Of a DNA stretch of 64,000 bases, positions 16,040-19,870 are shown in pieces. The stretch is from Eledone cirrhosa. Its lineage: Eukaryota. The notes under the pieces were generated by a model. It had not been told where the DNA came from and made no database searches. It saw only the letters and a list, made by a program, of their open reading frames with translations. The DNA lies in contig OZ024742.1 of the NCBI GenBank assembly GCA_964016885.1, positions 94,240,001-94,304,000 of the forward strand, given 5' to 3'. Each line of letters starts with the position of its first letter. Position 1 is the first letter of the stretch. Made by a program: the position numbers and the translations under genes.

Positions 16040-16340
16040 GCATACGTGTGTGTGTATATATGTGTGTGTATGCACGTGCGTATGTGCTATATATATATAT
16101 ATGTGTGTGTGTGTGTGTGTGTGTGTGTGTGTGTGTGTGTGTGTGTGTATGTGTGTGTGTGTGTATATATATGTGTGTGTATGTATATGTATATATATGT
16201 GTGTGTGTGTATATATGTGTGTGTATGTGTGTATGTATATATATATGTATATGTGTGTGTATGATTATGTGTATACGTATGTATGTACATGGATGTGTGG
16301 GCGTATGCATGTGTGTGTATATACATATATACATATATAG
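16040..16340. repeat. (TG/TA)n microsatellite
   Basis: Directly visible. Confidence 0.95.
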
Positions 16341-17540
16341 ATAGTTAAAGAAAGAAGAGTAACATGATTGGCTGTACAATAAGGGCTTTATTTAAAGTAC
16401 TGACAATTGTTTCGTTGATCAGGTGCGACTAGAGTTCGCTAATCGCTTGAGGTTGCGTCAATCGATCTGCAATACATTGTTTACCACTGGTCAACACATC
16501 AGAGTACGTAGATATGAAAATAATTCACTCGAGGCAAGACTTATATAGAAAAACAGCGTAAAACCAAACCAATAACATCAATAATAAAATAGTGTATAAT
16601 TAAAACAATAACATCAATAATAAGATATTTATGGTAAATAGATAGAGAAATTACAGATGTAAAAAGTAAAAAGTAAAATATAAGATAGGGTACATTAAAA
16701 AATAATAAGAAAATGAGGAAATTGAAAATATAAAGAAAAAGTGAGTGAGAAATTGTAAGTAGATGTTAGTAGTTTTTGAGTCAGTGTTCTTATAAGGATT
16801 CTTTGGTGATAACATGGGCAACTAGATTTGAGATGTAGATAAATATGTGTAGAGGATCCAATAAAAAAAAGACAATAAATTAGAGATTAATTGATGTATA
16901 CATGTATTATATTTATGGGCTAGGGATGATGGGACGTTTGATAAACGCTTGTTGTAAATGTTTTGCTGATGTTTCTATCTTAATGGGGTTGATGAAGAGA
17001 GGGTGGAAGAAGTGTACAGAGATTCATGATCCAGTGACCGGTTGGCAGTTTGATAGTTAATAGTGGTGCGATGGTGTGTATTCTATGTTAAAATCTAGGT
17101 GGTTTAGTACTAATTTTGGGATTGTTGGTTCAAATCATGGTGGTTTGAAGTTCGCAAATCTAGTGGCTATGTTATGCCTACAGAAAATAGATCTTTCTAT
17201 TTTGCTGTTAAGCAACATCGTACCTTAAAATATGTAGCAGTTCTAAATTACAAATCCCGCTGTAGGCTTTTGCTACCGATAATTTCGACCAGCTAATCCT
17301 ATATTCTAGGTTTTTGTCCTTAAGCTGCCAGATTTTATTGGCGAGCGTTGTAGAGTTCTCCAGTGCATGGTTCTTCGTGGAGTGTCTGTGGACGTACCAC
17401 CTTTTCTTAAACTGCCCAGCTGTGGAACCTATGTAGTGCCAGGTAGAGCTGCCTGAATTCACAGTACACAGGTATACCATACTCGAATCAAGGCATCTAT
17501 TTAGTACTGTGCACTTATCTGGTAATTACAATTTGAGGTT
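16340..17540 (-). mobile_element. Penelope-like element 3' part (Neptune-type GIY-YIG plus 3' UTR)
   Basis: ORF 17208-17480 reads VYLCTV...YIGSTAGQFKKRW..H...TTLANKIWQLK...ISW; a hammerhead motif lies in the downstream UTR. Confidence 0.75.
16397..16507 (-). ncRNA. Type I hammerhead ribozyme motif (A9>U variant, long stem II)
   Basis: GTACT CTGATGT GTTGA..(~80 nt)..TCAAC GAAAC AATT GTC AGTAC, followed by AATAAA. Confidence 0.7.
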
Positions 17541-17789
17541 TTATTTCGTGCAGGTTCGTCGTTGCGGTATTGTAAGTTGTTGTGGGTGGGTTGTGATTTA
17601 GGCTTATTAATGTTTTGTTGTGATGCGTTCTGGTTGTGATGTTGTTATGTGTTTTGTATTTGGTGCTATCTTAAAACTATCCACGACGCGGAGTACTCAT
17701 AACCTCTAACTGGATTACTTATAACGATAAATTGTTATCCCATATATATATATATATATATATATATATATATACACACACACACATAT

Positions 17790-18040
17790 AACCGTCTATG
17801 CATTTCAGGCTTAACTGGCCTTCGTCAGGACGGTCCCTCCCACCGCTTGCGACTGCTGGACTAGAAGACAGCTGAGAATATATACTTTTCTCGTCTGTGT
17901 AAATGAGGTGATTAATCTCATTTGCATATGAAGCTGCATAGCTACGACTTCCTAAAACTGTATTTCTTTGGAGATAGGAAATATTTATACATATTGTATA
18001 AAGCTATGCTTGAAGCGAAATCCTATTTCTTTTATATATA
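17790..18040 (-). repeat. Left arm of the outer inverted repeat (partner 19525-19778)
   Basis: About 250-bp reverse complement of the partner; about 3 substitutions seen by eye. Confidence 0.95.
17791..17834 (-). ncRNA. Minimal type I hammerhead ribozyme
   Basis: Reverse complement of 19733-19776. Confidence 0.88.
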
Positions 18041-18329
18041 CACACACACACACACACACACACACACATACACACACACACACACACACACACACACACA
18101 CAGACACACACACACACACATATAAATATATATATATATAGATAATTTAATATATCTACTAACATAAGCGCACAGATGTACGCTAATGCCAGCAAATACA
18201 CAGGTTATGTCATAGTACCTAGGTGGTTCAATGCAGGACAATGCAGAACAATAATATATAAGACGTAAAATAAGAAAATTTCTTTAAAAAAATTTTTTTT
18301 TAAAATTAACTTACTTATTTGAATTTTCA

Positions 18330-18409
18330 CTCCAACTAATTAGTTTCTGCAATGGGATAAAGACAGTTACGTAATGAACTGTTGAGAATTTCATTGCGTC
18401 ATCAGGGAG
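18330..18409 (-). ncRNA. Type I hammerhead ribozyme (intact core)
   Basis: CTCC CTGATGA cGCAATG...CATTGCa GAAAC TAATTA GTT GGAG; palindromic stem III and GUU cleavage triplet. Confidence 0.8.
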
Positions 18410-18955
18410 GTAATTCTCAGCCGAGTCTCCAGGCGATGCGCGGACACTGGGGACTCATATAAAAATAATAATAATTCAGCAACTGGAACAGCTATCGAGG
18501 ACTGGATTCCAGCCACTGAAAATTCTCACTGCCACTGATCATATGGCCGATTCTAAAGAATCAATCACGTGACACAGAGGCTAGTCAGTAGGAATGGGAT
18601 GGTAAGATGACAGACGCCTACTAACACCCCCCCAAAAAAAATTTAGAAGTGGTTTTGGCAGGTTTGCTCGACAAATCAGTGATTTGTCGAGCAAACCTGC
18701 CAAAACCACTTCTAAATTTTTTTTTTTGGGGGGGGGGGTGTTAGTAGGCGTCTGTCATCTTACCATCCCATTCCTACTGACTAGCCTCTGTGTCACGTGA
18801 TTGATTCTTTAGAATCGGCCATATGATCAGTGGCAGTGAGAATTTTCAGTGGTTGGAATCCAGTCCTCGATAGCTGTTCCAGTTGCTGAATTATTATTAT
18901 TTTTATATGAGTCCCCAGTGTCCGCGCATCGCCTGGAGACTCGGCTGAGAATTAC

Positions 18956-19035
18956 CTCCATGATGACGCAATGAAATTCTCAACAGTTCATTACGTAACT
19001 GTCTTTATCCCATTGCAGAAACTAATTAGTTGGAG
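18956..19035 (+). ncRNA. Hammerhead copy with C3>A core substitution
   Basis: Mirror of 18330-18409 but reads ATGATGA. Confidence 0.7.
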
Positions 19036-19106
19036 TGAAAATTTAAGTAAGTAAGTTAATTTTAAAAAAAAAATTTTTTTAAAGAAATTTTCTTATTTTA
19101 CGTCTT

Positions 19107-19222
19107 ATATATATATATATATATATATATATATATATATATATATATATATATATATATATATATATATATATATATATATATGTGTGTGTGTGCATAT
19201 ATATATATATATATATATATAT
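19107..19222. repeat. (TA)n microsatellite
   Basis: Directly visible. Confidence 0.95.
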
Positions 19223-19522
19223 AGGTCTGTTTGCTAAGCGCTCATGTATTCACCCAGCTTATGCTGACCGAATAACCATGTTGCTTGTTTTTCTTTCCAT
19301 CTTCAGTTAGCTTTTCCTTTTTGTTGTTTACTTGTCTCACTAGCTTTACGCGTTTCACTTGTCCCAATAGCTTATTTTAGTTATTGCTCGAGCCAACATG
19401 AGTTATATGATTTTTAATGCGATGAAATACCAATGATCGTTGGCAAATCACTGATGAGGGACTAATTTTATAATATGTAATCCATGTGCAACCATGCAGT
19501 ATACTTCTCCCCATATTTTTCA
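19223..19522. repeat. Unclassified interspersed repeat
   Basis: Aligns without gaps to 40600-40760 and 41215-41330 (TTGCTCG...GCGATGAAATACC...ATCACTGATGA.GGAC). Confidence 0.7.
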
Positions 19523-19524
19523 TA

Positions 19525-19870
19525 TATATATATAAAAGAAATAGGATTTCGCTTCAAGCATAGCTTTATACAATATGTATAAATATTTCCTATCTCCAAA
19601 GAAATACAGTTTTAGGAAGCCGTAGCTATGCAGCTTCATATGCAAATTAGATTAATCACCTCATTTACACAGACGAGAAAAGTATATATTCTCAGCTGTT
19701 TTCTAGTCCAGCAGTCGCAAGCGGTGGGAGGGACCGTCCTGACGAAGGCCAGTTAAGCCTGAAATGCATAGACGGTTAGCCGCCTTGCTTCTGCTGGACA
19801 TCACCAGAGGGCGTTAGACCCCCCCACCCCCTCCCGGTGTTTGCATAGCTACGGCTGAAGGGTTTTTCAA
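19525..19870 (+). mobile_element. Short non-coding hammerhead-bearing retroelement end (PLE pseudo-LTR or retrozyme-like)
   Basis: Bounded by (TA)n, no ORF, contains an intact hammerhead and long-range complementary flanks. Confidence 0.65.
19733..19776 (+). ncRNA. Minimal type I hammerhead ribozyme
   Basis: ACCGTC CTGACGA AGGC cagttaa GCCT GAAA TGCA TA GACGGT: 6-bp stem I, full core, 4-bp stem II, palindromic ATGCAT stem III, AUA cleavage after 19770. Confidence 0.9.

What the first reader, a model, noticed from the sequence alone, without database searches (positions are those of the whole stretch)
16330..19870. Nested head-to-head stack of three unrelated hammerhead-ribozyme elements, all reading outward from one palindromic centre
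Seen: five hammerhead motifs in 3.5 kb from three sequence families. Three are on the minus strand (16397-16507, 17791-17834, 18330-18409) and two on the plus strand (18956-19035, 19733-19776). An inner palindrome (18254-19112) sits inside an outer inverted repeat (17790-18040 / 19525-19778), and the modules are separated by TA/CA microsatellites. Known: Penelope-like elements carry minimal type I hammerheads in their pseudo-LTRs and often have inverted 5' pLTR copies. Inference: microsatellite-targeting PLEs or non-autonomous retrozyme-like derivatives repeatedly inserted into each other's inversion centre. A read-through transcript from either strand would both self-cleave and fold into long dsRNA.
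Basis: partly seen in the sequence, partly recalled or inferred. Interest (0 to 1): 0.82.

Follow-up and report, generated by a model that had tools for sequence, protein, structure and literature searches.

The report
Ribozyme-bearing Penelope retroelements piled in microsatellite
Three common families of hammerhead-ribozyme-bearing retrotransposons lie side by side in one TA/CA-repeat tract, each copy folded head-to-head as is usual for its family; this is likely an ordinary pile-up of Penelope-like elements, not a ribozyme device.

Summary
The repeats and five hammerhead-shaped motifs are real, but only three have an intact core. 18956-19035 carries a local C3-to-A change; 16397-16507 has U at A9, as its family does.

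A is the 3' part of a Penelope-like element (PLE). B (~323 nt) and C (558 nt) are non-coding tandem units like non-LTR retrozymes.

There is no single palindromic centre. A, B-left, C and B-right are each a separate head-to-head insertion. Such inversions are routine in these families (C 41 of 69 loci, B 48 of 70) and typically end at two fixed sites in (TA)n, the known PLE 'tail' signature. The outer inverted repeat is a later local duplication: its junction occurs only twice in the genome, both here. A non-ribozyme element (D) inside it looks older, which argues against stepwise nesting.

A read-through RNA is predicted to trap the B and C cores in duplex.

One side lead: family C 5' ends crowd just after the ribozyme cut site (10 of 22 clean junctions, 1.6 expected). 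This is weaker in a second set and absent in B.

Verdict: new members of a known kind; modest interest.

The parts
14081..15960 (+). Family E: broken PLE (RT pieces plus GIY-YIG), outside the finding; its 3' end faces the same microsatellite as A. Start approximate.
   Evidence: ORF pieces; Pfam GIY-YIG PF01541, E=7.3e-5, at 15436-15729
15980..16339 (.). TG/TA microsatellite holding the 3' ends of E and A
16340..17669 (-). Family A: 5'-truncated, broken PLE arm (GIY-YIG region and 3' pLTR), ending at the family's short 3' site
   Evidence: 88% identical to L275, whose 631-aa frame has an RT GIYRDD motif, a CNCxxxxxC linker and a VYLC..YIG endonuclease region; 3' ends
16397..16507 (-). Family A type I hammerhead-like motif: CUGAUGU core (U at A9, family-wide), 82-nt stem II region, palindromic stem III ACAAUUGU
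17208..17525 (-). GIY-YIG endonuclease frame fragment of A (105 aa)
   Evidence: 150 scored genomic matches, E 1e-67 to 2e-45; no Pfam hit
17670..17742 (+). Inverted second arm of A: the last 72 nt up to the family's long 3' site (tail)
17742..17788 (.). (AT)16(AC)6 microsatellite
17789..18040 (-). B-left: inverted local duplicate of B-right, itself a head-to-head unit (junction ~17935), long 3' end facing inward at 18040; hammerhead at 17790-17835, copy stops 8 nt past the cut site
   Evidence: 3 substitutions in 252 nt against B-right; junction found exactly twice in the genome; shared private allele in 0 of 150 other occurrences
18040..18139 (.). (AC)40 and TA microsatellite
18140..18680 (-). 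Family C long arm (558-nt tandem unit), 3' end at the long site; hammerhead at 18330-18409 with intact CUGAUGA/GAAA core and palindromic stem III ACUAAUUAGU
18680..19112 (+). Family C short arm, 3' end at the short site; hammerhead at 18956-19035 with C3A at 18960
19106..19223 (.). (TA)n microsatellite
19225..19520 (+). Family D: 5'-truncated piece of a 548-nt tandem-unit repeat attached to TA; has CTGATGA but no complete hammerhead by the descriptor
19527..19856 (+). B-right (~323-nt tandem-unit family): inverted long-end piece 19527-~19630, then the sense arm with a minimal hammerhead at 19732-19777; stops about 50 nt before the family's short 3' site

Best explanation
This is likely a chance pile-up of Penelope-like retroelement insertions in one TA/CA microsatellite tract, in which each head-to-head unit was likely made in one insertion event and the outer inverted repeat likely arose later by local duplication.

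Shown: A is a PLE fragment. B, C and D are non-coding tandem units. In A, B and C, 3' ends fall mainly at two fixed sites per family joined to (TA)n, and inverted pairs typically carry one of each.

Inferred: a PLE RT/GIY-YIG protein cuts both strands of (TA)n. It primes cDNA from each end at two internal start sites on multimeric RNA, and the two truncated cDNAs join head-to-head, so hammerheads read outward automatically. The TA tracts left on both sides remain targets, so families accumulate. B-left would have formed by fold-back copying of B-right, primed in its flanking TA run, at about the time C arrived. The hammerheads are passengers from their families' RNA cycle. At this locus one is mutated, and the B and C motifs would be trapped in duplex in a read-through RNA.
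For: Family C: 41 of 69 short-end (TA)n junction loci have an adjacent inverted arm; of the 35 seen whole, 33 end at the long site and 0 at the short site. Family B: 48 of 70 inverted; 33 end at the long site, 2 at the short. Family A: 13 of 29 loci show an inverted pair, all one long and one short (counted by eye). Tandem arrays: C 558-nt units, B 323, D 548; longest ATG frames 30, 42 and 99 aa. B junction occurs 2 times in 3.0 Gb, both here; shared allele 0 of 150 elsewhere. Ages: D 9 private substitutions in 296, B duplicate 3 in 252 pairwise, C arms 4 in 417. Other-family hammerheads lie within 1.5 kb at 9 of 99 loci, and 32 distinct other motifs turned up. In print: inverted 5'-truncated copy, tail at one end and microsatellite bias (PMC8557442); both-strand cleavage and two RT start sites (PMC11167929); dual hammerheads 100-700 bp apart on opposite strands (PMC4209133).
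Against: No autonomous partner of B or C was identified: no homology to A or E ends, and only 6 of 306 B/C loci had a PLE-protein hit within 400 bp, 122-380 bp away. So PLE mobilisation of B and C rests on the structural signature. 13 of 48 inverted B arms end at neither site, and one C locus has two long ends (L304). Three hammerhead families within about 1.5 kb were seen at 0 of 99 comparison loci (1 of 39 at 5 kb), so the pile-up is uncommon. Gene conversion could make the B arms look younger than they are.
Confidence: 0.78

Rival explanations
1. True nesting at this locus: B first formed a palindrome centred on a TA run, then D and C inserted into that centre, the first reader's order for B and C.
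For: The geometry fits: both B long ends face a central TA/CA tract that holds C and D. A fold-back at (TA)n gives exactly such a palindrome. Inverted repeats can be homogenised by gene conversion (general knowledge).
Against: D has 9 private substitutions in 296 nt against 3 over 2x252 nt for the B pair (p=0.009). C's age is about equal to the duplication's. A is not nested. Even if true, the target is TA, not palindrome centres.
Confidence: 0.13
2. B-left, or part of the symmetry, is an assembly artefact such as a fold-back read or haplotype mis-join.
For: Palindromes between long microsatellites are hard to assemble (PMC8557442). No listed contig piece spanned the stretch.
Against: The arms differ by substitutions (3 in B, 4 in C). 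The symmetry is interrupted by D and stops at different flanks. The same head-to-head pattern recurs at dozens of loci with different junctions.
Confidence: 0.05
3. The locus is a functional bidirectional ribozyme or dsRNA cassette kept by the host, cleaving read-through RNA or yielding hairpin small RNAs.
For: Three intact cores. A read-through RNA is predicted to form a very long duplex.
Against: One core is mutated. Cores pair with the opposite arm in the predicted fold. C and the B duplicate differ between arms by about 1%, so the structure is young. Each part is one of many family copies.
Confidence: 0.04

Closest known systems
Endonuclease-bearing Penelope-like elements with a C-terminal GIY-YIG (Neptune/Nematis type; Craig et al. 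2021, PMC8557442)
   Same: A: RT followed by a Cys-rich linker and GIY-YIG, a hammerhead in the 3' pLTR, 5' truncation, an inverted 5'-truncated copy, a tail at one end, (TA)n targets.
   Different: The tail is about 147 nt, not 30-40. The hammerhead has U at position 9 family-wide and an 82-nt stem II region. The clade was not placed by a tree.
Metazoan non-LTR retrozymes (Cervera and de la Pena 2020, PMC7229834; Li et al. 2026, bioRxiv 10.64898/2026.07.22.740005)
   Same: B and C: non-coding units of 323 and 558 nt at 43% and 38% GC, one type I hammerhead per unit with palindromic stem III, in head-to-tail tandems.
   Different: The sampled copies are dispersed, short, often inverted insertions in (TA)n with PLE-type fixed ends. 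Circular RNA and cleavage are untested, and no parent pLTR was found. The passages read cover coral, mussel, axolotl, vertebrates and insects, not cephalopods.
Poseidon PAc of Anolis (Frangieh et al. 2024, PMC11167929)
   Same: Cuts and extends both strands at AT-rich DNA; two internal RT start sites bound the tail; uncut RNA is a substrate, and most long C arms run through the hammerhead (54 of 81 pass the cut site).
   Different: In vitro, no start-site difference was seen between strands and no reads ended at the hammerhead cut. Here inverted pairs are mostly one long plus one short, and C 5' ends crowd just after the cut.
Minimal PLE hammerheads (Cervera and de la Pena 2014, PMC4209133)
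   Same: Type I, short palindromic helix III expected to work as a dimer; pairs on opposite strands 100-700 bp apart already noted.
   Different: C has a C-A mismatch at 10.1-11.1 and a 51-nt stem II region; A has A9U.

Membership tests
EN+ Penelope-like element (family A) | Single ORF with RT and C-terminal GIY-YIG endonuclease | tested here: met
   L275, 88% identical to the window copy, has a 631-aa frame with GIYRDD and a VYLC..YIG region, read by eye; 365 homologues at E<=1e-3. Pfam gave no significant hit.
EN+ Penelope-like element (family A) | Inverted 5'-truncated copy and a tail at one end | tested here: met
   13 of 29 loci have an inverted pair, all one long and one short end
EN+ Penelope-like element (family A) | Canonical hammerhead in the pLTR | tested here: inconclusive
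   Full architecture, but U at A9 in 24 of 28 matches and none with A9; activity untested
Neptune/Nematis clade (family A) | Zn-finger-like linker before GIY-YIG, and RT phylogeny | tested here: inconclusive
   CNCHLPDKCPLRNRC precedes the endonuclease motif; no reference tree was built
Non-LTR retrozyme (families B, C) | Tandem units, each with a complete type I hammerhead | tested here: met
   C: six motifs 557-558 nt apart in L015; B: two motifs 323 nt apart in L053; core intact in 238 of 252 C and 83 of 99 B occurrences
Non-LTR retrozyme (families B, C) | Non-coding, a few hundred nt, GC below 45% | tested here: met
   Longest ATG frames 42 and 30 aa; GC 0.43 and 0.38
Non-LTR retrozyme (families B, C) | Self-cleavage and circular monomer RNA | not testable with these tools
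   Needs RNA data or an assay
Non-LTR retrozyme (families B, C) | Homology to the pLTR of an autonomous PLE | tested here: inconclusive
   No match to A or E ends; no PLE frame contiguous with B or C in 306 loci; the genome was not searched exhaustively
Non-LTR retrozyme (family D) | Type I hammerhead in each unit | tested here: not met
   No descriptor hit inside D in 11 loci; D is not filed as a retrozyme

The most novel reading that the evidence does not exclude
The copies of these families are a fossil record of the PLE insertion reaction. Each inverted insertion is primed on both target strands at two different fixed RNA sites. In family C a sizeable share of template RNAs begins at the hammerhead cut, which would be in-genome evidence that a PLE-type ribozyme cleaves the RNA that gets integrated.
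Probability: 0.35. Interest if true: 0.65.

Novelty: new member of a known kind. Interest (0 to 1): 0.33.

Why it matters
The locus itself is ordinary mobile DNA. Its value is as an entry point to hammerhead-bearing families in a cephalopod-like genome (organism inferred). The role of the hammerhead in endonuclease-bearing PLEs and the origin of their inverted structures are stated as open (PMC8557442). In vitro work found ribozyme cleavage unnecessary (PMC11167929). A young family with at least 240 long-end and 69 short-end exact (TA)n junctions lets both questions be tested by counting ends genome-wide. The family-wide A9U core in A is a ready test of whether PLE hammerheads must be active.

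Tried and rejected
- Rfam scan of the window: no hammerhead among the 150 of 159 rows shown; the hits are microsatellite and hairpin noise.
- Monomer folds of the four motifs: z 0.0 to -1.6, uninformative.
- Sequencing runs for the C arm: no RNA holder listed, 4 runs of unknown kind from one study. This is no evidence either way.
- Laying those runs on 17768-18032: 1,230-1,299 contigs in each of three runs and 12 in the fourth, none spanning the stretch, so the assembly of B-left was not settled.
- Pfam on the family-A frame and on RT pieces of E: no significant hit.
- Hammerhead in D: not found. Hammerhead at the 3' end of E: none by the descriptor.
- 5'-end pile-up at the cut site in B: absent (2 of 18 clean arms, 1.5 expected; 3 of 50, 4.1 expected).
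- Autonomous partner of B or C: not found.
- The 100 nt right of B-right (19850-19955) matched only this locus among the fetched loci.
- Earlier findings by words: none.
- Considered and rejected: MITE or DNA-transposon terminal repeats (arms are copies of a tandem unit with variable junctions), and miRNA hairpin at the C centre (below Rfam gathering scores).
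Full report
SETTING. The window lies in a 3.0-Gb genome of 1,796 contigs, rich in microsatellites. The named homologues of the family-A protein in the list come from Argonauta and a sea cucumber, so a cephalopod-like animal is inferred; the sample was not sought.

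1. OBSERVATION. Both inverted repeats are present: inner 97%, outer 99%. My type I hammerhead descriptor found three exact-core motifs in 64 kb: - strand 17790-17835, + strand 19732-19777 (family B) and - strand 18330-18409 (family C). Allowing one core mismatch added + strand 18956-19035, - strand 16397-16507 and two microsatellite-based hits elsewhere that lack a palindromic stem III. Shuffles of the region gave 0 exact-core and 0.02 relaxed hits on average in 200 trials. The C3A change at 18960 is private to this copy. The A9U change is family-wide in A: 24 of 28 regex matches read CTGATGT and none has A9 (occurrences in overlapping loci were not de-duplicated). Perreault 2011 lists C3 and A9 in the consensus core (passages).

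2. WHAT THE PARTS ARE. A: the window copy is 88% identical to L275, whose 631-aa frame shows an RT motif, a Cys linker and a GIY-YIG-type region. It is a broken PLE 3' end. C: a 558-nt unit in head-to-tail arrays, with best relatives about 1% different by substitutions. B: a unit of about 323 nt, about 4-5% from relatives. D: a 548-nt tandem unit with no hammerhead. First-look candidates were 2,394 for C, 2,063 for B, 2,816 for A and 4,205 for D; these are not copy numbers. A further PLE (E) ends in the same microsatellite as A.

3. FAMILY RULES. Numbering from the hammerhead cut, C copies end at +82 or about +204, B at +121 or about +162, and A at two sites 147 nt apart, joined to (TA)n or related repeats. 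Of all 69 exact short-end C junctions, 41 have an adjacent inverted arm. Of the 35 seen whole, 33 end at the long site and none at the short one. For B, 70 of 72 places were examined: 48 inverted, 33 long, 2 short, 13 elsewhere. For A, 13 of 29 loci show a pair, all long plus short. One C locus has two long ends (L304). This is the PLE pattern in print: an inverted 5'-truncated copy with a tail often at one end only (PMC8557442, passages), the tail being the stretch between two RT start sites of a protein that cuts and extends both strands (PMC11167929, main text). Outward-reading hammerheads follow directly from it, and opposite-strand pairs 100-700 bp apart were noted in 2014 (PMC4209133, passages).

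4. THIS LOCUS. A (short end 16340, long end 17742) and C (long 18140, short 19112) are complete two-armed insertions. Each B copy is itself an inversion whose long end points inward, so the outer repeat is tail-to-tail. Its junction exists exactly twice in the genome, both copies share an allele seen in 0 of 150 other occurrences, and they differ at 3 of 252 sites. One is therefore a local duplicate of the other. D, between them, has 9 substitutions in 296 nt that differ from all three best relatives, more than the B pair (p=0.009). C's arms differ at 4 of 417. The simplest order is D and B-right first, then C and the B duplicate at about the same time. Caveats: gene conversion, or D alleles inherited from an unsampled source. 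Fold-back copying primed in the TA run beside B-right is my inferred mechanism.

5. CLUSTERING. Another family's hammerhead lay within 1.5 kb at 9 of 99 loci (2/29 C, 2/30 B, 3/29 A, 2/11 D). Two other families were seen at 0 of 99, and at 1 of 39 loci with 5 kb. Three families together is therefore uncommon, but with thousands of candidate copies sharing one target type some such sites are expected (inference).

6. READ-THROUGH RNA. On either strand the antisense arm precedes the ribozyme. The minimum-energy fold of 17742-19870 pairs both B and C cores with the opposite arm. Cleavage and long duplex would be alternatives, with duplex favoured (prediction). The A motif has no antisense partner here.

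7. SIDE RESULT. In the short-end C set, 10 of 22 simple non-inverted arms start at +4 to +17 after the cut (1.6 expected from exposure, p=1e-6). With clean inverted arms included it is 11 of 45 (3.0 expected, p=1.5e-4). Dropped first: the window itself, three complex junctions, edge-cut rows and rows with an upstream piece. The junctions were checked by eye. More AT-rich bins in that set had no pile-up. The second set took 80 stretches (81 anchors) from the first 100 listed of 240 long-end places, leaving out 15 already held and 4 at the end of the list. There 7 of 33 observed ends fell in +1 to +20 (1.8 expected, p=0.0015) and only 1 in the 20 nt before the cut. But 11 more fell in the A/T tracts at +41 to +80, the non-inverted subset was 2 of 12 (p=0.13), some inverted junctions are ambiguous because the tract is quasi-palindromic, and 48 arms ran past the stretch. 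B shows no pile-up. Rivals are A/T microhomology and RT stalling at the folded, uncut ribozyme. I rate ribozyme-cut templates at roughly 0.4.

8. LITERATURE SEEN. Li 2026 (parts 1-3 of 5) argues that animal retrozymes are non-autonomous PLE derivatives, and found only 1 of 9 tested to cleave. Cervera 2020 (passages) has no mention of octopus or cephalopod. The giant squid genome paper lists 235 Rfam hammerheads (passages). The O. vulgaris repeat paper lists 31 recently active Penelope-like families and does not mention hammerheads (passages). Five searches showed no listing that describes these families, a 5'-end pile-up at the cut, or a natural A9U family. No supplements were read, and Repbase and Dfam were not available; either may already hold these families.

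VERDICT. The features are real but ordinary in kind: known PLE architecture repeated four times in one microsatellite tract, plus a local duplication. Interest 0.33, carried by the end-mapping lead and the A9U family.

Noticed in passing
family A, window 16397-16507 and L062-L090: The whole family carries U instead of the conserved A9 in an otherwise complete hammerhead with a long, branched stem II; either an active variant or a dead ribozyme in a successful PLE.
   Followed up: partly
fetched loci: 32 distinct other hammerhead motifs with palindromic stem III, by eye about ten more families, lie near TA-targeted insertions in this genome.
   Followed up: no
window 19225-19520; L093-L104: Family D is a 548-nt non-coding tandem unit attached to (TA)n with CTGATGA but no GAAA half; possibly a hammerhead-less non-autonomous PLE derivative. 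One locus (L095) shows a head-to-head inversion.
   Followed up: partly
window 14081-15960: A second broken PLE (RT and GIY-YIG, + strand) ends tail-to-tail with A in the 15980-16339 microsatellite; no hammerhead was found at its end by the descriptor.
   Followed up: partly
L114-L118, L204 (G000:C3:20669117-20680300): A family-C array of about 10 kb of 558-nt units with an inverted end, the longest seen; a candidate source locus or a product of rolling reverse transcription.
   Followed up: no
G000:C2:328834994-328842584 and C1:360588725-360593149: Same-structure C insertions repeated three and two times at about 3.5-3.7 kb spacing, suggesting local tandem duplication or assembly duplication.
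   Followed up: no
families A, B, C: Tails between the two 3' sites are about 147, 41 and 122 nt; A and C far exceed the 30-40 bp usually quoted for PLEs.
   Followed up: partly
window 36969-37379: Tandem array of 10.2 copies of a 40-nt unit, 88% matches.
   Followed up: no
window 19950-20060: An abundant short repeat follows B-right and recurs near many fetched loci; recalled as an octopus SINE, not tested.
   Followed up: no
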